32,000 nucleotides of DNA. Source: Planctopirus limnophila DSM 3776 (lineage in GTDB: Bacteria; Planctomycetota; Planctomycetia; Planctomycetales; Planctomycetaceae). Below, piece by piece: positions 5,897-32,000 of the stretch. Each line of letters opens with the position of its first letter. The first letter of the stretch is position 1. Location: contig NC_014148.1 of the NCBI RefSeq assembly GCF_000092105.1, forward strand, positions 2,700,001 through 2,732,000, in the 5' to 3' direction. Position numbers and translations under genes: made by a program. The notes under the pieces were generated by a model. That model had not been told where the DNA came from. It made no database searches and was given only the letters and a program-made list of their open reading frames with translations.

Positions 5897-6001
5897 GCCT
5901 CAGGGCCTGATCAGGCTGATTTGGCAAATTGTTACATCGGCTTGTTAACAGAAGACACAAATCCCGGCAATGCCGCCTTCATCGATTACTGGGGCTTTTC
6001 A

Positions 6002-7621
6002 TCATGCCGCCATCGACTGGACAGCTCTTTTGGGAAGATGAACACGGAAGGTACTTCCACAGCCAGGACCATCACTGTGAGCCTCAATTCGCCCGCCATG
6101 ATCAACGACAATCCGGTGGCTGATCGACAGCCCCAGACCAGTCCCACGCCCTGATTTTCTTTCTGTAAAAAAGGGCTCAAACAGATTCTCCAGGACGCGG
6201 GCCGACATGCCGCAACCGGTATCTTTAAAAGCCAGACAAACCTCATCAGAAAGCTCTTTGATTTCCACACTGAGCTTCCCACCAGATGCGCCCATCGATT
6301 CCAGGGCATTTGCCACAAGATTCAGAACCACCTGCTTGATTTCCGCACCATTAACTTCAGCGAAGACCGATTCCACAGGACGGCAATCAATCGTATGTCC
6401 CGAGAAACGCCCCATGTGACCCACCATCTGCACGACGTCCTGAACGATCTTCGTCAGATCCTGCCGACCGCGAGGAGCGTCCTGCCCGCGTGCAAAAGTC
6501 AATAATCTTGAAGTGATTTCTTCGCATCGACCCGCCTCGGACTGAATCATCTCCAGATACTGCCTCGCGACTTCTGCATCTTCCGCAGAGATCAACAATG
6601 GTTCGCCATTGGAACCCGCTACTCGAGATGCCAGCGATTCGGAAGCCATCGAGATGGCCGAAAGCGGATTATTGATTTCATGAGCCACTCCAGCCGCCAG
6701 AAAACCGACACCCGCCAGACGCTCCGAGCGAACCAGTTGTCTCGATCGCTCATTCACCTGTTTGTCGAGGTCAGCTTTAATCTCACAAAATCGCTCGGTC
6801 ATGGCATTGAATGCCTGTGCCAGATCGACAATCTCATCCTGCCCGTCGAGTTTGACTCGCACGCTGAAATCACCGCGAGCAACTTTCATCGCCTTTCGGT
6901 GCAGTTCTTTTATGGGCAGGAAGATCCAGCGAATCATCAGGTGCATCACCATGAAAATTGCGACGACGGCACACAGGGCAACGACCAGCAAAATCCAGAA
7001 GAAGACCTGATAAGTCGATTGCGAATCCTGCCAGAGCTTCTGCAACCCCTCAATCGGATTGGGAAGACTGACTGCACTCTTCTGCAAAGAAGCCAGCGAC
7101 CCAGTAATTTCCTGCTGGGCGACAAAAGCAATCTGCTGACTCTCAAGAGCTGGCAGCTTATCTTTCATGCGGGCAATATCCGCATCCATTTTCTGGAGAA
7201 TGGCAAAGGCAACTGCACTTTGCTCGCGGTTCTCGGGAGAATTCGGCAGCTTCGCCTGCTGCAAGCGGTAGTCAGCCATGGCCGATTCCAGATCGGCCAA
7301 ATGCCTCGAAAGCGTGAATGCGTCTCGCCTCAGAGTGGGGTCCATCAATCTCGAAGTTGCCGCGAGGACTTCGTAGCGACGAGGACTCGACCTCAGATTT
7401 TTTTCGATCTCATGAACCATACTTCCATAAGACCACAGGCCCAGAAATCCGGCTCCAAACAAAGCGGTGAGCAGCCCTCCCGAGATGAAGAGCACAATAC
7501 ACAGTTTGCGACGAATGGAACGCGTTAAAAACACCCGGCCTCCTTGCCGTAAACCTGCCATTCCATCAAGCCCGGGATTCAACTGCCCTGACTCTCTCGC
7601 AGCAACCAGCTTCTGTGCCAA
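6002..7621 (-). CDS. HAMP-domain sensor histidine kinase (partner of the sigma54 regulator)
   Basis: Two hydrophobic segments flank a roughly 170-aa extracytoplasmic region. HAMP segment (DEIVDLAQAFNAM), H-box AHEINNPLSAI, and ATPase boxes LNLVANALESM, DTGCGM, GTGLGLSIS. The track start at 7621 is TTG. ATG at 7561 is an alternative. Confidence 0.95.
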   Translation of the reverse strand: MAQKLVAARESGQLNPGLDGMAGLRQGGRVFLTRSIRRKLCIVLFISGGLLTALFGAGFLGLWSYGSMVHEIEKNLRSSPRRYEVLAATSRLMDPTLRRDAFTLSRHLADLESAMADYRLQQAKLPNSPENREQSAVAFAILQKMDADIARMKDKLPALESQQIAFVAQQEITGSLASLQKSAVSLPNPIEGLQKLWQDSQSTYQVFFWILLVVALCAVVAIFMVMHLMIRWIFLPIKELHRKAMKVARGDFSVRVKLDGQDEIVDLAQAFNAMTERFCEIKADLDKQVNERSRQLVRSERLAGVGFLAAGVAHEINNPLSAISMASESLASRVAGSNGEPLLISAEDAEVARQYLEMIQSEAGRCEEITSRLLTFARGQDAPRGRQDLTKIVQDVVQMVGHMGRFSGHTIDCRPVESVFAEVNGAEIKQVVLNLVANALESMGASGGKLSVEIKELSDEVCLAFKDTGCGMSARVLENLFEPFFTERKSGRGTGLGLSISHRIVVDHGGRIEAHSDGPGCGSTFRVHLPKRAVQSMAA

Positions 7622-9581: not shown

Positions 9582-10853
9582 ATGATCTTCAAACTGTTGT
9601 GCTGGACAGGATTCATGTCTTCTCCAAATCAAAAGGGTGCTTTCCATCGCGGAACAAACTCCGCTCCAGCACTGATGTCGATCACTCTGATCGCAGCAAT
9701 TTTCTATTCCAGCACCTCCTGGGCTCAGCACCCGTCCGGGCCGGTTCATACTGTTTCGCCTCTCACCCACCAATCAACAGAGACATTCGTAACCGAATCC
9801 AGCGCCACCGCCTGGCCTGTCATTTTGCTTATGCCGGAAGCCATCGAAGTTCAGCCCGAAGCTGTCGATTCCGGAAACACCTGGGCTGTGCCTGAATCTT
9901 CCTCAAGCGAGATTCCTGGCATGATCACTGCCGCGCCCCACGTGATTCCTGCAGCTCAATGGCAGGGCGAACCTCAAAATCAGATCCTGCAGGGCGATAA
10001 CGTCATGCTTCCGGGAGAGCCACCATCCCCGTTTGAAACTGATATTGGACAGGCCAACCTCAATGAACCACTGCTTCCTCAAGCCGGCAAACCATGGATT
10101 ATCCCCATTTCGACTCAAGCCGCGATTTCGATTCTGCCTGGTGATGGTGACGAACTGGGCATGACGAACCTCGAGTTCAGGCAAACATTTCTCTTCCCTC
10201 GATCCAACGGCTGGATGGTGACACCGGCTTTCAGCACAAATTTCCTTAACGGCCCGACAACGACCGATCTCCCGCCAACTCTTTACAGCGGCTCGATTGA
10301 TTTCATGTGGGCTAAAGAACTCTCGCCGAAATGGAAAATGAATCTGGCTGTTGCTCCGGGCATTTACACAGATGCTCAGAATACCAGCAGTAATGCTTAC
10401 CGCATCACCGGCCGAGCGATCTTCCTGTGGCAAATGAATGCCACCTGGCAATTGGCCTTTGGTGCCGTCTATCTCGATCGGGATGATATCGTGGCTCTGC
10501 CAGCCGTGGGGGCTGTTTATACCCCCAGTGAATCATTTCGAATCGAAGCCATTTTTCCCAGACCACGAGCCGCCTGGCGACTTTCGCAAGTTGGTGATGA
10601 AGAGCGGTGGTTCTATCTTGCTGGTGAACTGGGTGGCGGTACATGGGCCGTCGAACGTGCATCAGGTGCCGATGACACTCTGACTTACAACGCTCTCTAT
10701 CTACTGGCGGGCTATGAAATCAAACGTAAAGGCCGGCTGGCTCCTCGCTTTGAAGCCGGTTATGTCTTCAATCGCCGAGTCGAATACGAGTCCAATGTCG
10801 GGAATTTTAATCCCAGTTCAGCAGCGATGATCCGCGTGGGTCTCGGATTCTAA
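9582..10853 (+). CDS. Hypothetical secreted protein, putative outer-membrane beta-barrel
   Basis: 423-aa ORF. An internal segment MSITLIAAIFYSSTSWAQ looks like a signal peptide, and ATG 9615 is also possible. The C-terminal half is rich in G/Y/F/W with alternating polarity and ends in RVGLGF (terminal Phe, an OMP-type signature). I recognise no family. Confidence 0.6.
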   Translation: MIFKLLCWTGFMSSPNQKGAFHRGTNSAPALMSITLIAAIFYSSTSWAQHPSGPVHTVSPLTHQSTETFVTESSATAWPVILLMPEAIEVQPEAVDSGNTWAVPESSSSEIPGMITAAPHVIPAAQWQGEPQNQILQGDNVMLPGEPPSPFETDIGQANLNEPLLPQAGKPWIIPISTQAAISILPGDGDELGMTNLEFRQTFLFPRSNGWMVTPAFSTNFLNGPTTTDLPPTLYSGSIDFMWAKELSPKWKMNLAVAPGIYTDAQNTSSNAYRITGRAIFLWQMNATWQLAFGAVYLDRDDIVALPAVGAVYTPSESFRIEAIFPRPRAAWRLSQVGDEERWFYLAGELGGGTWAVERASGADDTLTYNALYLLAGYEIKRKGRLAPRFEAGYVFNRRVEYESNVGNFNPSSAAMIRVGLGF

Positions 10854-28329: not shown

Positions 28330-28333
28330 CGAG

Positions 28334-28390
28334 TGCCCAAGACAGGAATCGAACCTGCACGGGAGTGATCCCACTAGCTCCTGAAGCTAG
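28334..28390 (-). tRNA. 5'-truncated tRNA-Leu(CAG) copy (anticodon arm to discriminator only); probable att-site remnant, not a functional tRNA
   Basis: The minus strand reads CTAGC-TTCAGGA-GCTAG (anticodon arm, anticodon CAG). Next come the long variable arm GGGA-TCAC-TCCC and the T arm GCAGG-TTCGATT-CCTGT. The 3' acceptor strand is CTTGGGC plus A. No complementary 5' acceptor strand (G[CT][CT][CT][AG][AG]G) and no D arm exist in the 60 nt upstream. Confidence 0.7.
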
Positions 28391-28417
28391 TGAGATTATG
28401 CCAAAAGCCACCCGAAA

Positions 28418-29260
28418 TTACACCGCAGAGCAGGGGGGCGGGGGTCGTTTTGCGATCCTTTTCTGTGGTCTGGCAATCGACTCCGGTCCCTTCGAGGCGA
28501 GCAGCTCCAGCCGCTTGGCCGCAATCTCGCAGTATGCCTCGGAAAGCTCGATTCCGATGGCCCTCCTGCCGCTGGCCTGGGCAGCCACCAGAGTGGTGCC
28601 AGAACCGGCAAACGGATCCAAAACCATGCCACCTGCCGGGCAGATCTGCACCAGCTCCAGCAGCAAGGCCGTGGGCTTGCCGGTCATGTGGTGTTTATCG
28701 TCCTGCCGCACCTGATGCCGCAGACACCCGGGAAAGGGGCCTGTATCCGATCGGTTTGCACACTTCCCAAGAGTCCCCCAGGGGATGAATTCGCACTGGT
28801 GCCGTATGTAGCCTTTGTGCGGTGCTCTGGAGGCCAGCCCCTTATCCCAGGCCATTGTGCCGCGGTGAATGAAATCGGCCCCCTGCATGGCGTTGGTGAT
28901 TGTCGGGAGTTGCCGCCAATCGGTGAAGACCATCGCATATGAGGTTTCCCGAAGTGATCTCCGGCAGAGCTTCAGCCAGAGCATCGACCACCAGCCATAA
29001 CTGATGGAATCCTTGTTGTCGCCGTCGAAACTCACCCGCCCGCAATTTTGGCCATTTTGGCAATACTTGAGCCGTGGGTCGCATTTCGCTCCCCCACCGG
29101 CGGCCCCCGAGCAATAGGGGGGATCGGTCAACAGCGTATCGACCACCAGGCCGCTCAATTTCGGCAGCACCTCGAACAGATCGCCGTGGTAAAGCGTCAC
29201 GGCACCGCTTTGAAAATAGGGGGACATCCTTGCCTCCGAGAATGGGAAGAATCGGCACAA
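28418..29260 (-). CDS. Beta-class N6-adenine/N4-cytosine DNA methyltransferase (N6_N4_Mtase type), orphan
   Basis: Motif IV TDPPY lies near the N-terminus and motif I VLDPFAGSGTT near the C-terminus, which is the beta-class order. ATG 29227 with GGAGG 7 nt upstream is the likely start. No restriction endonuclease gene is adjacent. Confidence 0.9.
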   Translation of the reverse strand: MCRFFPFSEARMSPYFQSGAVTLYHGDLFEVLPKLSGLVVDTLLTDPPYCSGAAGGGAKCDPRLKYCQNGQNCGRVSFDGDNKDSISYGWWSMLWLKLCRRSLRETSYAMVFTDWRQLPTITNAMQGADFIHRGTMAWDKGLASRAPHKGYIRHQCEFIPWGTLGKCANRSDTGPFPGCLRHQVRQDDKHHMTGKPTALLLELVQICPAGGMVLDPFAGSGTTLVAAQASGRRAIGIELSEAYCEIAAKRLELLASKGPESIARPQKRIAKRPPPPCSAV

Positions 29261-29399
29261 CTGACACGACCGGAGCCAATTCTGGAGGCGGAGGGCGAGC
29301 GGTCACGGCAAGCCGCTGGAGGTGTACTAATTTGGGAGTGATGCGGCGCATGGATGCCCCAGTGGGTGCATCCCGGCTGCGTGTTCAGTCGGTGATGTC

Positions 29400-29440
29400 G
29401 GCGGCGGGGTTGTTCGCGCAGCTCCGCCGCCACCTTTTTT
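29400..29440 (+). terminator. GC-rich hairpin plus T6, terminator-like on the + strand only
   Basis: ggcggcgggg(t) at 29400-29410 pairs with (g)ctccgccgcc at 29421-29431. That gives 8 G-C pairs plus G-U, G-C and U-G pairs, with a 10-nt loop. Next come acc and tttttt (29435-29440). On the minus strand no T-run follows the hairpin. Confidence 0.4.
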
Positions 29441-29517
29441 GTGACAGCACTCTTTGTTACCGCGGAATGAGCCCTTGCGCAAGCCCGGTCTTATCACACC
29501 TGAAATCAGCGTCCCAC

Positions 29518-30339
29518 CTAAGTTTTGTTCGGCAAACCGTCCACCGTTTGCGACGAAACCTTTTGATGATTCTGCAACATTACCTTTGCTGTTCTTGGCG
29601 GAACCCCTATTAACAACAGCCTGTCAATTATCTCAACAGGCGAAATTCCGCTGGCAATTCCATCTCGAATAATGCCCTCGGCGCGATCTAAAGAAAACAC
29701 TCCATCTAAATCGCGATTTCTTCTGACATCGACAAATGGAAATCGCTCCGTGACCATTTCAATTTGCCGAAGACGATGATTAAGCGACCTCGTGTTCTCA
29801 ACGATTTCCTCAAGGATGTCCTCCTTCGGCCTAGGTTCACTTGCCACAGATTCAGGAAACTGCAACAGCGCTGCATCAAACTTAGCCTTAAACGAACTCC
29901 AATATGTATCAAATACTTGCGTCAGAATTCGCTCATCAAGCGCATTAGCATCTAGGCAATTGTTCAACGTTCGAACCAACTCCCACACGCTGCTTCGCTC
30001 AGGCATTGTGTGATTGAATTGGGCAAGTGGATCTTCGAGATCTGATGGCTTCAAATCTACAAGAAAAGTGCATACACGATTCGAGGACAGGCCCTTTGCC
30101 AATGCACCAGACTCAAACAAAATCCAGGGGCGCTGACGATTTTCTTGGGTCAAGCAAACGATGCCAACTGACGTATCTTGCAGCTGGTCATGAATTTCGC
30201 TGAACCACAAGGCACCACGATCGATGTCACGAGTGGAAAGCCATGGTCGGGTTGCCTGAAGGACACATTTGATCCAATCATTAAGAATCTCTGCGATTGC
30301 TCGACTTCTCTCACCCGACCAACTGATAAACACCTTCAT
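29518..30339 (-). CDS. TIR-domain protein with uncharacterised C-terminal domain
   Basis: 273 aa with ATG 30339 and GGAG 6 nt upstream. The N-terminus MKVFISWSGERSRAIAEILNDWI and RPWILFESGAL (Trp...Glu motif, candidate catalytic Glu76) match bacterial TIR_2-type domains. Residues from about 130 to 273 match nothing I recognise. Confidence 0.85.
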   Translation of the reverse strand: MKVFISWSGERSRAIAEILNDWIKCVLQATRPWLSTRDIDRGALWFSEIHDQLQDTSVGIVCLTQENRQRPWILFESGALAKGLSSNRVCTFLVDLKPSDLEDPLAQFNHTMPERSSVWELVRTLNNCLDANALDERILTQVFDTYWSSFKAKFDAALLQFPESVASEPRPKEDILEEIVENTRSLNHRLRQIEMVTERFPFVDVRRNRDLDGVFSLDRAEGIIRDGIASGISPVEIIDRLLLIGVPPRTAKVMLQNHQKVSSQTVDGLPNKT

Positions 30340-30480
30340 AGAATACTCCGAGATACTTCACATCCCCTAAACAGGGTTCACTACTGACATCAAAACCAAC
30401 TCTAGTCTAGTCGCAATTAGCGCAGCGTTTCGCCACCTGAAACACCAACAAAGCACGAAGTTCACACCGCTTATCTATTC

Positions 30481-30963
30481 TCAACGAGTGATACACTTCA
30501 AAATCTTCTCGTTTACCTGAATCTTTTTCTCCTTCTGCCGACCTGTCAAAGCTCGCTTTCTACGAATATCATTATAGAACTTGTACTCCCAATCATTAAT
30601 AAATCGCTGCTGGTGAGCGTATTCAATCATTGCGACATTGAAAGACCTTCCGGCATCCTCCCTCACATATCTAACCGACTTAAAAAGGTCATTTGACGCG
30701 ATTTGAAGAAAGTTATTAACACATACATTTCCAACCTCTGTGGTGACGTTAGTAAACTGATTAACAATCACACATATCTCATTGATCGGATACTGTCCGC
30801 ACGGGCATGTCAACGAAGTTTCCGAATGGTAGATCTGGTATAGACGCCACTCACTCCTCGCATGCTCCCAATCATCCGATTGACTGAGACATAAAATATG
30901 TTCGTGAAGCTTCTGTTGGTTCGACATTTCCAGACTCAGAAAGTTCTTCCCCAAAGAGTACAA
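30481..30963 (-). CDS. Hypothetical small protein with Cys cluster (CPCG-x8-C-x17-C)
   Basis: The ORF start at 30963 is TTG. ATG at 30927 (MSNQQKLHEH..., 148 aa) is more likely. It lies in the AT-rich stretch, co-directional between the S8 and TIR genes. I recognise no family. The C-terminus is basic (RRKRALTGRQKEKK). Confidence 0.55.
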   Translation of the reverse strand: MYSLGKNFLSLEMSNQQKLHEHILCLSQSDDWEHARSEWRLYQIYHSETSLTCPCGQYPINEICVIVNQFTNVTTEVGNVCVNNFLQIASNDLFKSVRYVREDAGRSFNVAMIEYAHQQRFINDWEYKFYNDIRRKRALTGRQKEKKIQVNEKILKCITR

Positions 30964-31034
30964 TTAGAAGCCCCCACAGCTTCCACGCCAATCGCGCAAA
31001 CGAAATTGAGACTCTCCAACACACATTTCACGCC

Positions 31035-32000
31035 TCACGAACGACGACGCACACGAATTCGAGATGCAAGTCTCAGATCCTGGGCCCCCCAAGACAGTTT
31101 CTCCATCTCAGTAACCATTTCATTGTATACATTTGCCTTCCCTTCCGGGTCCCGGATTGTAAGAAGCAAAACAAGCTTTTGGGGTTCCTTACACCTGAAA
31201 CCATCACGATTAAGAATCTCTAGATGAAGACGCCAGTTCTTACAAATAGGCCCTGCGGTAAAGGCCCGATAATAAAACTTCAGAGGAGACCACTTAAACC
31301 CCTCAGAGACCATACGAGCCTCACCACCCCGAGTTACGTCTTTTGGAGCGGGCCTGAGTTGAGGATTATATACTTCTTTCCCCGTTTCGTTATTCTTCAT
31401 TACTGTCCCTAAACTCGCCGTCAGGTTCGTACGACAGTACTCCATACCGAATCGCGCATCTGTAGGCGGATCGTAAGCTAAAGTCATGAAGACTTCCGCT
31501 CGCAATCCTTTATTGGGAATGACGAGAGAACTTGGCATGGGGAATTGATGCTTCTCAAAGAAATGGCGATCAGTCAATTCAGCATGAAAGATGACCGTAG
31601 CCGAGGACTGCGTGCAATTCAGAATTTCTGACACATCTCCCGGACTCCCAAAACCCTTATAACGAACATCCAGGGCATCTGGGCAGCCTGATCTAAGAAA
31701 TGCAGAATGGGCAATCAGTCCTTTGACATATGCCGGAGACAAATTGCCTTCTGGCTCAAGCTCGCGATATATGTTCGCGGCAATGTTTGAAATATGAGGA
31801 GCAGCAAAACTGGTACCAATATTCTCGGCCAGATTTCCGTGGCCATCTGTAGATACTACGCCGCATTGCAAGCAATCCCCAGTTTCATCACAGTTGCCAC
31901 CGTAGTGACTGACTTCTGGTTTAATGTAGAAATGTGGCGCGGGACCACGTCGCGAAAATCCCGAAGGTTCATCAATTCCAACACATGACGATTGATTACT
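31035..32000 (-). CDS. S8 (subtilisin-like) family serine peptidase, partial (N-terminus beyond the window end)
   Basis: The active-site serine motif GTSFAAPHISN is present. The track start at 31871 is a TTG inside a longer frame. I translated 31872-32000 in frame (SNQSSCVGIDEPSGFSRRGPAPHFYIKPEVSHYGGNCDETGDC) and found no stop, so the ORF runs off the window. The catalytic Asp and His must lie outside. A roughly 220-aa C-terminal extension follows the Ser motif. Confidence 0.88.
   Translation of the reverse strand, partial: SNQSSCVGIDEPSGFSRRGPAPHFYIKPEVSHYGGNCDETGDCLQCGVVSTDGHGNLAENIGTSFAAPHISNIAANIYRELEPEGNLSPAYVKGLIAHSAFLRSGCPDALDVRYKGFGSPGDVSEILNCTQSSATVIFHAELTDRHFFEKHQFPMPSSLVIPNKGLRAEVFMTLAYDPPTDARFGMEYCRTNLTASLGTVMKNNETGKEVYNPQLRPAPKDVTRGGEARMVSEGFKWSPLKFYYRAFTAGPICKNWRLHLEILNRDGFRCKEPQKLVLLLTIRDPEGKANVYNEMVTEMEKLSWGAQDLRLASRIRVRRRS

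What the first reader, a model, noticed from the sequence alone, without database searches (positions are those of the whole stretch)
29518..32000. Co-directional S8 protease / Cys-cluster orphan / TIR cassette: candidate undescribed defence system
Three minus-strand genes sit in the AT-richest part of a tRNA-anchored island: an S8 subtilase running off the window, a 148-160 aa protein with no recognisable family, and a TIR-domain protein.
- TIR domains in bacteria are NAD-consuming or signal-producing immune modules (Thoeris and related systems).
- A Thoeris variant in which a TIR signal activates a caspase-like protease has been described, to my recollection.
- An ATPase + S8 subtilase pair is known as the ietAS defence system.

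I do not know of a described system that combines a TIR protein, an S8 subtilase and this small Cys protein. Two readings are possible. In the first, an Iet-like pair (with the ATPase just outside the window) sits next to an independent TIR module. In the second, this is a new TIR-to-protease signalling system with the small protein as sensor or regulator. The intergenic gaps (about 107 and 141 bp) mean operon status is not proven.
Basis: partly seen in the sequence, partly recalled or inferred. Interest (0 to 1): 0.85.

Follow-up and report, generated by a model that had tools for sequence, protein, structure and literature searches.

The report
Known ietAS beside unrelated TIR gene
The three neighbouring genes are not a new immune system: the protease is half of the known two-gene ietAS defence system, and the TIR gene and the small cysteine-rich gene are independent single-gene passengers that never travel with it elsewhere.

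Summary
Extending the contig shows an AAA+ ATPase just beyond base 32000. It overlaps the S8 gene by 8 bp. Both proteins match the IetA and IetS defence profiles end to end (E 4e-130 and 3e-251), with intact Walker A/B motifs and an intact Asp/His/Ser triad. This is an ordinary ietAS pair.

The proposed TIR-to-protease system fails the co-occurrence test. Profile searches found no cross-hit in 83 loci with TIR homologues, 20 loci with small-protein homologues, or 8 ietAS loci. The closest relatives of each gene were included.

The TIR protein belongs to a very widespread single-gene family with no conserved neighbour. It also occurs as a lambdoid-phage moron and as small-plasmid cargo, and it is surrounded by defence genes. 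Its TIR core averages 71% pairwise identity with invariant W72 and E76, while its C-terminus averages 12%.

The small 4-Cys protein belongs to a large uncharacterised family of about 2,500 clusters, found inside Type I R-M operons, in phage replication modules and fused to Abi_C.

Verdict: a defence-island mosaic of independent modules. Interest is low. The untested stand-alone TIR family is the only part worth following up.

The parts
31035..32000 (-). 3' part of ietS, the last 321 codons plus stop of a 760-aa S8 peptidase. The codon for catalytic Ser503 (GTSFAAP motif) is at 31809-31811. Asp271, His300 and the whole of ietA lie beyond base 32000.
   Evidence: The fragment matches PADLOC IetS PDLC02197 at E 4.1e-110, on model positions 435-749 of 749. 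The full gene on L001 (7023-9305) matches IetS at 2.6e-251, on model positions 5-749 of 749. NCBIfam IteS_antiphage matches at 6.5e-202, scoring 673 bits against an equivalog cut-off of 900. The triad motifs are shown. IetA (L001 5927-7030, 367 aa) matches PADLOC IetA at 4.2e-130, has Walker A GPPGVGKT at residue 131 and Walker B VLFLDE at residue 185, and overlaps ietS by 8 bp.
30928..31034 (.). 107-bp gap between ietS and the small gene.
   Evidence: No terminator-like or promoter-like site was found in the gap above background.
30481..30927 (-). Small 148-aa protein with four invariant cysteines (an alternative TTG start at 30963 gives 160 aa). It is a stand-alone member of a large uncharacterised family and is not linked to ietAS or TIR elsewhere.
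   Evidence: No credible Pfam, PADLOC, PHROGs or NCBIfam hit. C41, C43, C52 and C69 are invariant. The AF2 model has pLDDT 91 and no PDB match (best E 0.2), with only weak matches to uncharacterised viral proteins. An exhaustive HMM search found 2545 representative clusters. Contexts: between hsdM and hsdS in Type I R-M operons, in phage replication modules, next to a C5 methylase, next to a DEDDh exonuclease, and fused to Abi_C. No TIR or Iet hit in 20 loci.
30340..30480 (.). 141-bp gap between the small gene and the TIR gene.
   Evidence: DNA similarity to the closest TIR loci begins exactly at the TIR start codon, so the upstream gap is not shared.
29518..30339 (-). Stand-alone TIR protein of 273 aa: TIR core (about residues 1-130, with W72 and E76), a helical linker (about 131-195), and a hypervariable three-helix C-terminal domain (about 217-265).
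   Evidence: Pfam TIR_2 E 1.3e-6. PADLOC TIR-TM PDLC03016 E 3.9e-59, but only on model positions 1-202 of 293. phrog_13899 E 2e-88. 2779 homologous clusters. 285 relatives among GTDB species genomes spanning many phyla. No conserved neighbour: the most frequent family is in 5 of 80 loci. Mean pairwise identity is 0.71 in the core, 0.46 in the linker and 0.12 in the C-terminus, and W72 and E76 are invariant in 66 of 66. It is a phage moron in mEp390 and cargo of a 4.7-kb plasmid.
29400..29431 (+). GC-rich 14-bp-stem hairpin followed by a T-run, in the 290-bp GC-rich spacer between the TIR gene and the methylase gene. It marks a compositional and probably transcriptional boundary.
   Evidence: Terminator-like site. 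Spacer GC is 0.61 against 0.466 for the TIR gene. There is a weak, sub-threshold tfoR-like Rfam match of 25.5 bits against a gathering score of 70.
28418..29227 (-). N6/N4 DNA methyltransferase of 269 aa, GC 0.60. It is a separate module from the AT-rich block.
   Evidence: Pfam N6_N4_Mtase E 1.5e-25. PADLOC MTase_II PDLC03321 E 8.2e-51.
28333..28417 (-). tRNA-Leu(CAG)-like element that starts immediately after the methylase stop codon. It is probably a degenerate tRNA or a 3'-part remnant that marks an island boundary.
   Evidence: ARAGORN calls it. The Rfam tRNA model does not, at the gathering score or at E<=1. The fold lacks a normal acceptor and D arm. No second copy of its 3' part exists in the window or in L001.

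Best explanation
This stretch is the edge of a defence-island-like mosaic in Planctopirus limnophila. It is made of independent modules that happen to point the same way.

**1. A canonical two-gene ietAS system.**
- The AAA+ ATPase IetA lies just outside the window. The 760-aa S8 protease IetS has its last 321 codons inside the window.
- By analogy with the characterised system, IetS is the toxic or effector protease and IetA restrains it. Infection or loss of IetA control then releases proteolysis and arrests the cell. This step is inferred from the literature, not shown here.

**2. A stand-alone small 4-Cys protein of unknown function.**
- It is probably zinc-binding.
- It comes from a large mobile family seen in R-M operons and phage replication modules.
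- The best guess is a nucleic-acid-related accessory or regulator. This is an inference.

**3. A stand-alone TIR protein that most likely acts alone as an abortive-infection NADase.**
- The ultra-conserved TIR core carries the catalytic-type W-x-x-x-E glutamate (E76).
- The helical linker would drive the oligomerisation that TIR catalysis needs.
- The hypervariable C-terminal three-helix domain would sense a phage cue.
- The mechanism is inferred. The architecture and the lack of a partner gene are shown.

**4. A separate GC-rich N6/N4 DNA methyltransferase next to a tRNA-like remnant.**

No signalling link between the TIR protein and the protease is needed or supported.
For: **ietAS is complete and ordinary.**
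- The contig extension L001 is identical to the window over 3639 bp.
- It shows IetA (PADLOC 4.2e-130, NCBIfam IteA 1.5e-126) overlapping IetS (PADLOC 2.6e-251, model positions 5-749 of 749, with no extra domain) by 8 bp.
- Walker A/B motifs and D271/H300/S503 are intact.
- IetA lies directly upstream of IetS in all 6 of the 8 other ietAS loci where the contig reaches that far, at 40-66% identity. Nothing downstream of IetS is shared among the 8.

**The three genes are independent.**
- HMM and phmmer searches of six-frame ORFs gave 0 cross-hits in 83 TIR loci (up to 10 kb of flank each side), 20 small-protein loci and 8 ietAS loci (tblastn).
- The closest TIR relatives (72, 69 and 68% identity) have neither partner. 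DNA similarity to the window starts exactly at the TIR start codon and ends inside the ORF.
- Clustering of TIR neighbours found no family in more than 5 of 80 loci.

**The TIR gene is autonomous and defence-associated.**
- It is a moron between Q and the holin genes in phage mEp390, with its own bidirectional terminator.
- It is cargo of a 4.7-kb mobilisable plasmid.
- 140 ORFs within 2.5 kb of TIR homologues hit 184 PADLOC models, against 23 models for 140 ORFs at least 6.5 kb away.
- W72 and E76 are invariant, the core averages 71% identity and the C-terminus 12%.

**Literature.** ietAS works as a two-gene unit, with the protease as toxin and the ATPase as antitoxin, and its anti-phage mechanism is unknown (PMC13069673; 10.1101/2022.08.21.504612).
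Against: - The four AT-rich genes (ietA, ietS, small, TIR) form one low-GC block between GC-rich flanks. They are co-directional, and no convincing terminator lies in the two gaps. Co-transcription and local functional interplay in this strain cannot be excluded.
- The NADase activity of the TIR protein and the Zn-binding of the small protein are inferred only.
- The AF2 model of the TIR protein was poor (pLDDT 60), so the TIR fold rests on sequence profiles.
- The co-occurrence sample for the small family covers about 10 distinct contexts out of about 2,500 clusters.
Confidence: 0.85

Rival explanations
1. The three genes form a new signalling system. The TIR protein makes a nucleotide signal that activates the S8 protease IetS, in the manner of type IV Thoeris (TIR plus caspase-like protease), and the small Cys protein acts as sensor or regulator.
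For: The genes are co-directional and adjacent in one AT-rich block, with no clear terminators in the gaps. A TIR-to-protease precedent exists in type IV Thoeris (cited in PMC13069673).
Against: There were 0 of 83, 0 of 20 and 0 of 8 cross-occurrences. The closest relatives of each gene lack the other two. IetS aligns end to end with the IetS model and has no added ligand-sensing domain. It already has its cognate partner IetA, overlapping it by 8 bp. No ThsA, SLOG, Macro or caspase-like protein lies nearby.
Confidence: 0.03
2. The small Cys protein is a lineage-specific third component of ietAS, comparable to the helicase IetH in ietHAS.
For: It lies 107 bp downstream of ietS on the same strand. 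ietAS is known to recruit extra components (ietHAS, PMC13069673).
Against: The eight other ietAS loci, including relatives at 66% and 64% identity, lack it. Twenty loci with small-protein homologues lack IetA and IetS. The family instead sits in R-M operons and phage replication modules.
Confidence: 0.04
3. The small protein and the TIR protein form a two-gene sensor and effector pair, a soluble analogue of the 2TM-1TM-TIR system of P2-like phages.
For: The TIR core is 40% identical to the TIR-TM protein of phage P2_AC1, which works with two upstream small genes. A small gene also lies upstream here.
Against: The small protein has no TM segment and no PADLOC 2TM or 1TM match. No small-family member was found in 83 TIR loci, and no TIR in 20 small-protein loci. 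The upstream 148-aa ORF in L117 is unrelated.
Confidence: 0.03
4. The TIR protein is not an immune effector. It is instead a regulator or a host-interaction (Tcp-like) protein whose C-terminal helix-turn-helix-like domain binds DNA.
For: Some homologues carry precomputed Pfam GerE or Sigma70_r4_2 hits at the C-terminus. The C-terminal three-helix bundle is the only confidently modelled part.
Against: The catalytic-type Glu is invariant. The gene is strongly enriched among defence genes. It sits in a phage-moron position and as plasmid cargo. It is homologous to the TIR component of a catalogued phage-defence system. A hypervariable C-terminus is not what a conserved regulator would show.
Confidence: 0.08

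Closest known systems
ietAS (IetA AAA+ ATPase plus IetS S8 protease). Described as a toxin-antitoxin system of plasmid pTiC58 (Yamamoto 2009) and as an anti-phage system (Gao 2020); both references are as cited in PMC13069673.
   Same: Same two proteins, same order, overlapping genes, full-length profile matches, intact ATPase motifs and intact protease triad.
   Different: It is a divergent planctomycete subfamily. NCBIfam equivalog scores fall below the trusted cut-offs: 422 against 510 for IteA and 673 against 900 for IteS. The function has not been tested in this organism.
Rst 2TM-1TM-TIR system of P2-like prophage hotspots (PADLOC models 2TM-TIR, 1TM-TIR and TIR-TM). The attribution to Rousset et al. 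2022 is from my own knowledge.
   Same: The TIR core is homologous: 40% identity over 179 aa to the phage P2_AC1 protein, with the same PW(I)xFExGAL motif.
   Different: Only model positions 1-202 of 293 match. The C-terminal part is unrelated, and the two membrane-protein partner genes are absent. The window's protein belongs to a much larger partner-less family.
Thoeris types I-IV (a ThsB TIR protein plus a signal-activated effector; type IV uses a caspase-like protease)
   Same: A TIR domain with a catalytic-type glutamate, and a protease gene nearby.
   Different: There are only marginal ThsB-type matches (PADLOC E 0.0016; NCBIfam ThcB4 E 0.074). No ThsA-type or caspase-like effector is present. 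The nearby protease is IetS, which has its own ATPase partner. No co-conservation was found.
Accessory genes embedded in Type I R-M operons (for example prrC-type add-ons; comparison from my own knowledge)
   Same: Homologues of the small protein sit between hsdM and hsdS in three viral or proviral contigs.
   Different: There is no sequence or fold relation to any described add-on. In this window the small gene is not inside an R-M operon.

Membership tests
ietAS | A large S8 peptidase of about 750 aa, homologous to IetS over its full length, with an intact Asp/His/Ser triad | tested here: met
   PADLOC IetS PDLC02197 matches at 2.6e-251, protein residues 5-756 on model positions 5-749 of 749. 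The window fragment alone matches at 4.1e-110. D271, H300 and S503 are present. NCBIfam IteS matches end to end at E 6.5e-202 but below the equivalog cut-off (673 against 900 bits), which marks a divergent subfamily.
ietAS | An AAA+ ATPase, IetA, with Walker A and Walker B motifs | tested here: met
   L001 5927-7030 lies outside the window. It matches PADLOC IetA at 4.2e-130 on model positions 3-371 of 374. NCBIfam IteA matches at 1.5e-126, scoring 422 bits against a cut-off of 510. GPPGVGKT is at residue 131 and VLFLDE at residue 185.
ietAS | ietA lies immediately upstream of ietS on the same strand, as one unit | tested here: met
   The genes overlap by 8 bp on L001. The same order is seen in all 6 of the 8 other ietAS loci where the contig extends far enough.
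ietAS | A toxin-antitoxin or anti-phage phenotype that depends on the protease | not testable with these tools
   Needs an experiment. The properties reported in the literature are taken from PMC13069673.
Thoeris (types I-IV) | A ThsB-type TIR protein | tested here: inconclusive
   Pfam TIR_2 passes its cut-off (29.4 against 28 bits). ThsB-specific models match only marginally: PADLOC ThsB E 0.0016 over 28 residues and NCBIfam ThcB4 E 0.074.
Thoeris (types I-IV) | A cognate signal-activated effector (SIR2-SLOG, Macro-TM, or caspase-like) in the same operon | tested here: not met
   None of the neighbouring proteins (small protein, IetS, IetA, methylase, three upstream genes) matches a ThsA or caspase-like PADLOC model.
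Thoeris (types I-IV) | The TIR gene and the effector gene are conserved together across genomes | tested here: not met
   No neighbour family occurs in more than 5 of 80 TIR loci. IetS was found in 0 of 83. ThsA-like proteins appear in only 4 of the 140 sampled neighbour ORFs, and ThsB-like hits occur in the same sample (3 ORFs), so these may be complete Thoeris systems lying next door (their adjacency was not checked).
Rst 2TM-1TM-TIR | A full-length TIR-TM family protein | tested here: not met
   Only model positions 1-202 of 293 match (E 3.9e-59). The phage P2_AC1 protein, by contrast, matches positions 1-286 of 293 (E 2.7e-118).
Rst 2TM-1TM-TIR | Two upstream membrane-protein genes (2TM and 1TM) | tested here: not met
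   The upstream small protein has no PADLOC hit and no hydrophobic segment: the maximum Kyte-Doolittle score over 19 residues is 0.94. P2_AC1 has both genes, matching at 6.9e-58 and 2.7e-75.

The most novel reading that the evidence does not exclude
The stand-alone TIR protein represents an untested, extremely widespread single-gene anti-phage family.
- It has 2779 clusters at 90% identity and 285 hits among species-representative genomes spanning many phyla. It is also carried by phages and small plasmids.
- A near-invariant NADase-type TIR core is fused to a hypervariable C-terminal three-helix domain that would act as the phage sensor.
- It works without any partner gene and is distinct from Thoeris and from 2TM-1TM-TIR.

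A weaker second candidate is the 4-Cys small-protein domain, which has no Pfam model. It may be a new defence-associated module, given its position inside Type I R-M operons and its fusion to Abi_C.
Probability: 0.4. Interest if true: 0.45.

Novelty: new member of a known kind. Interest (0 to 1): 0.2.

Why it matters
Little is new for the question as posed. The locus adds a planctomycete example of ietAS and shows that adjacency in a defence island is not evidence of a system.

It is a useful negative. An S8 plus TIR combination that looked like a new TIR-to-protease pathway dissolves once the contig is extended by 2.4 kb and co-occurrence is checked.

The by-products may be worth a screen:
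- A partner-less TIR family with a 71%-identical core across many phyla and a 12%-identical tail.
- A family of about 2,500 clusters of 4-Cys proteins that has no Pfam model and recurs inside R-M operons.

Tried and rejected
- **AF2 model of the TIR protein.** A 20-sequence alignment gave pLDDT 60.5. The Foldseek hits were meaningless, with the best at E 0.8. No structural claim about the TIR core is made.
- **Profile search of the TIR alignment against PDB sequences.** It returned only a designed miniprotein at E 0.92.
- **Foldseek of the small-protein model.** The model is confident (pLDDT 91). Against PDB nothing scored below E 0.2. Against BFVD there were only weak matches to uncharacterised viral proteins. 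No function could be assigned.
- **Metagenome scan with IetS as a single protein.** It returned only 3 loci. This was supplemented with close relatives found by protein search and contig look-ups.
- **A 148-aa ORF directly upstream of the TIR homologue in L117.** It looked like a conserved pair but is unrelated and low-complexity.
- **76-aa ORFs downstream of IetS in L101 and L103.** They are unrelated to each other.
- **TIR plus N6/N4 methylase as a pair.** Distant methylase hits occur near the TIR gene in about 3 of 86 loci, in various orientations. This was rejected as ordinary island or prophage background.
- **Search for a second copy of the tRNA 3' part, to define the island.** None was found in the window, in L001 or in IMG/VR.
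- **Literature searches.** Searches for TIR-TM, stand-alone TIR and mEp390 gave nothing on this TIR family. Gao 2020 and Yamamoto 2009 are not in the held library.
Full report
**1. Observation**

The last 2.5 kb of the window carries three minus-strand ORFs exactly as described.
- A TIR protein of 273 aa at 29518-30339.
- A small protein at 30481-30927, 148 aa from the ATG, or 160 aa from an upstream TTG at 30963.
- An S8 peptidase reading frame that is open from 31035 to the window edge (322 codons).

Family assignments are as follows.
- Pfam gives TIR_2 at E 1.3e-6, just above its cut-off, and Peptidase_S8 at E 2.9e-12.
- The small protein has no credible match in Pfam, PADLOC, PHROGs or NCBIfam.

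The gaps are 107 bp and 141 bp. The block is AT-rich, with gene GC of 0.42-0.50 against about 0.53 for neighbouring core genes and 0.60 for the adjacent methylase.

The organism is Planctopirus limnophila DSM 3776, and the TIR protein is Plim_2105 (names returned).

**2. What lies beyond the window**

An exact-protein look-up found a 38-kb assembly contig of the same strain, L001. It is identical to the window over the 3639 bp they share.
- It shows a 367-aa AAA+ ATPase whose stop overlaps the start of a 760-aa S8 peptidase by 8 bp.
- The ATPase matches PADLOC IetA at E 4.2e-130 and NCBIfam IteA at 1.5e-126.
- The peptidase matches PADLOC IetS at E 2.6e-251 over model positions 5-749 of 749, and NCBIfam IteS at 6.5e-202.
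- Both NCBIfam scores fall below the equivalog cut-offs, so this is a divergent subfamily rather than a near copy of the E. coli prototype.
- Walker A (GPPGVGKT, residue 131), Walker B (VLFLDE, residue 185) and the S8 triad (D271, H300, S503) are intact. The Ser503 codon is at window 31809-31811.

The literature held here describes ietAS as a protease-toxin and ATPase-antitoxin pair that also defends against phages. Its mechanism is still unknown, and it is cloned and active as a two-gene unit (PMC13069673; 10.1101/2022.08.21.504612).

**3. Do the three genes travel together?**

*From the small protein.*
- The closest homologues (41-65% identity) lie in five different contexts, none with a TIR or S8 gene:
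  - next to a DDE transposase and upstream of a DEDDh exonuclease gene;
  - between a planctomycete PSCyt2/PSD1 gene and its DUF1501 partner;
  - after a C5 DNA methylase;
  - near a dCMP deaminase;
  - after an ABC-type ATPase fragment.
- Nine IMG/VR contigs add more contexts: between hsdM and hsdS of a Type I R-M operon (three contigs), and in phage replication modules.

*From the TIR protein.*
- A scan of one genome per GTDB species found 285 relatives. The best 80 loci, with up to 10 kb of flank on each side, come from many phyla.
- tblastn with IetA, IetS and the small protein found nothing in them.
- All-against-all clustering of neighbours within 6 kb found no family in more than 5 of 80 loci. 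Those few reflect shared ancestry of related genomes.
- The three closest TIR relatives (72, 69 and 68% identity) also lack both partners. Nucleotide similarity to the window starts exactly at the TIR start codon and stops inside the ORF.

*From IetS.*
- Relatives at 66, 64 and 57% identity, plus three metagenomic loci at about 41%, have IetA directly upstream wherever the contig allows. Nothing is shared downstream.

*Profile-level repeat.*
- HMMs of the TIR and small families, and phmmer with IetA and IetS, were run on six-frame ORFs.
- There were 0 cross-hits in 83 TIR loci, 20 small-protein loci and 8 ietAS loci.
- The Planctopirus locus is the only place where all three occur.

**4. The TIR protein**

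- The family is very large: 2779 clusters at 90% identity.
- It matches phrog_13899 at 2e-88.
- Its best PADLOC match, TIR-TM (PDLC03016), turned out to be the TIR component of the three-gene 2TM-1TM-TIR system.
  - In phage P2_AC1 that protein matches the model end to end and follows genes matching the 2TM-TIR and 1TM-TIR models.
  - The window's protein matches only model positions 1-202 of 293 and has no such partners. It shares the TIR core but is not a member of that system.
- Across 66 full-length members, the core (residues 1-130) averages 71% pairwise identity, the helical linker 46% and the last 78 residues 12%. W72 and E76, the W-x-x-x-E position typical of catalytic TIR domains, are invariant.
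- The AF2 model was poor overall (pLDDT 60) but confident for a C-terminal three-helix bundle. Some homologues carry precomputed GerE or sigma-70 region 4 hits there.
- The gene behaves as an autonomous unit.
  - In lambdoid phage mEp390 it is a moron on the opposite strand between Q and the holin genes, with its own bidirectional terminator.
  - In a 4.7-kb mobilisable Serratia plasmid it is cargo, apart from replication and mobilisation genes and nadS.
- Neighbours of TIR homologues are rich in defence genes. 140 ORFs within 2.5 kb hit 184 PADLOC models at E<=1e-5. These include Thoeris, PARIS and Abi components and PDC candidates. By comparison, 140 ORFs at least 6.5 kb away hit 23 models.

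I infer a single-gene abortive-infection NADase with a variable sensor tail. The enzymology is not shown.

**5. The small protein**

- Four cysteines (C41, C43, C52, C69) and several acidic residues are invariant.
- The AF2 model is confident (pLDDT 91): a three-stranded sheet carrying the Cys cluster, followed by a helical domain.
- It has no PDB match (best E 0.2) and only weak matches to uncharacterised proteins of large DNA viruses and phages.
- The word-indexed search had suggested a tiny family of 14 clusters. An exhaustive profile search found 2545 representative clusters, including tandem repeats and fusions.
- One fusion partner is Abi_C at E 1.6e-18. Another is a weak nucleoside 2-deoxyribosyltransferase-like match that falls below its cut-off.

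The contexts are methylases, R-M operons, an exonuclease, a deaminase and phage replication genes. They point to nucleic-acid biology in mobile or defence regions. The function remains unknown.

**6. Surroundings**

- Downstream of the TIR gene is a 290-bp GC-rich spacer with a strong hairpin and T-run at 29400-29431 on the plus strand.
- Next comes a GC-rich N6/N4 methyltransferase at 28418-29227.
- Its stop codon abuts ARAGORN's tRNA-Leu(CAG).
- The Rfam tRNA model does not recognise that element, and its 5' third does not fold as an acceptor or D arm.
- It looks like the 3' two-thirds of a tRNA. This would fit a remnant left at the distal end of an element integrated into a tRNA gene, with the island on its 5' side as observed. 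No second copy was found within reach.

**7. Verdict**

- The cautious reading (ietAS plus an independent TIR module) is confirmed.
- What remains is a mosaic of independent modules in a low-GC block.
- Local co-transcription or synergy in this one strain cannot be excluded with sequence data alone, but nothing calls for it.
- The finding rates low. The partner-less TIR family and the 4-Cys family are modest leads for experimental screens.

Noticed in passing
window 28333-28417 (-): ARAGORN's tRNA-Leu(CAG) is not recognised by the Rfam tRNA model, at the gathering score or at E<=1. Only its anticodon, variable and T arms look tRNA-like. It starts immediately after the methylase stop codon, and assembly contigs of the same strain break here. 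It is possibly an att-site remnant of an integrated island.
   Followed up: partly
L016-L095 (TIR homologue loci); window 29518-30339: The TIR family has an unusual conservation profile across many phyla: 71% mean pairwise identity in residues 1-130 and 12% in the last 78 residues. It has no conserved neighbour gene.
   Followed up: yes
L027, L028, L032 and two further loci, around position 10000: In five loci (at least three are Haemophilus or Aggregatibacter) the TIR gene appears to sit between a 780-aa and a 390-aa gene that look like nrdA and nrdB. This reading is based on their N-terminal sequences only, with no family search. If correct, it is a single-gene insertion inside an essential operon.
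   Followed up: no
L106, L107, L112 at about 5989-6470; L111 4032-4937; protein P0303: Homologues of the small 4-Cys protein lie between hsdM and hsdS of Type I R-M operons, in a phage Toprim-ThyX replication module, and fused to an Abi_C domain. The family has about 2,545 representative clusters and no Pfam model.
   Followed up: partly
L008 2437-2883: A small-protein homologue is inserted between a planctomycete PSCyt2/PSD1 (DUF1549/DUF1553) gene and the adjacent DUF1501 gene. From my own knowledge these two usually form a conserved pair, which would suggest single-gene mobility of this family.
   Followed up: no
window 29345-29441 (+): Two GC-rich hairpins followed by a T-run lie in the spacer between the TIR and methylase genes. 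Rfam gives a weak tfoR-like match (25.5 bits, gathering score 70), which is almost certainly just a terminator-like structure.
   Followed up: partly
L001 253-5926 (beyond the window, upstream of ietA): A GC-rich cluster (GC 0.59-0.63) holds two large proteins with no Pfam or PADLOC match (632 and 428 aa) and a two-domain glycosyltransferase. An 846-bp AT-rich non-coding gap follows before ietA. This is another compositional boundary of the mosaic.
   Followed up: no
L115 (Serratia marcescens plasmid NZ_CP091124.1, 4747 bp): A tiny mobilisable plasmid whose cargo, apart from replication and mobilisation genes and nadS, is a TIR protein (41% identity over 158 aa). Its gene overlaps the rep gene by 4 bp.
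   Followed up: partly
L116 and L118: The closest TIR relatives sit next to GpA_nuclease (terminase-like) genes. In L116 there is also an nSTAND1 NTPase. This suggests prophage or satellite hotspots.
   Followed up: no
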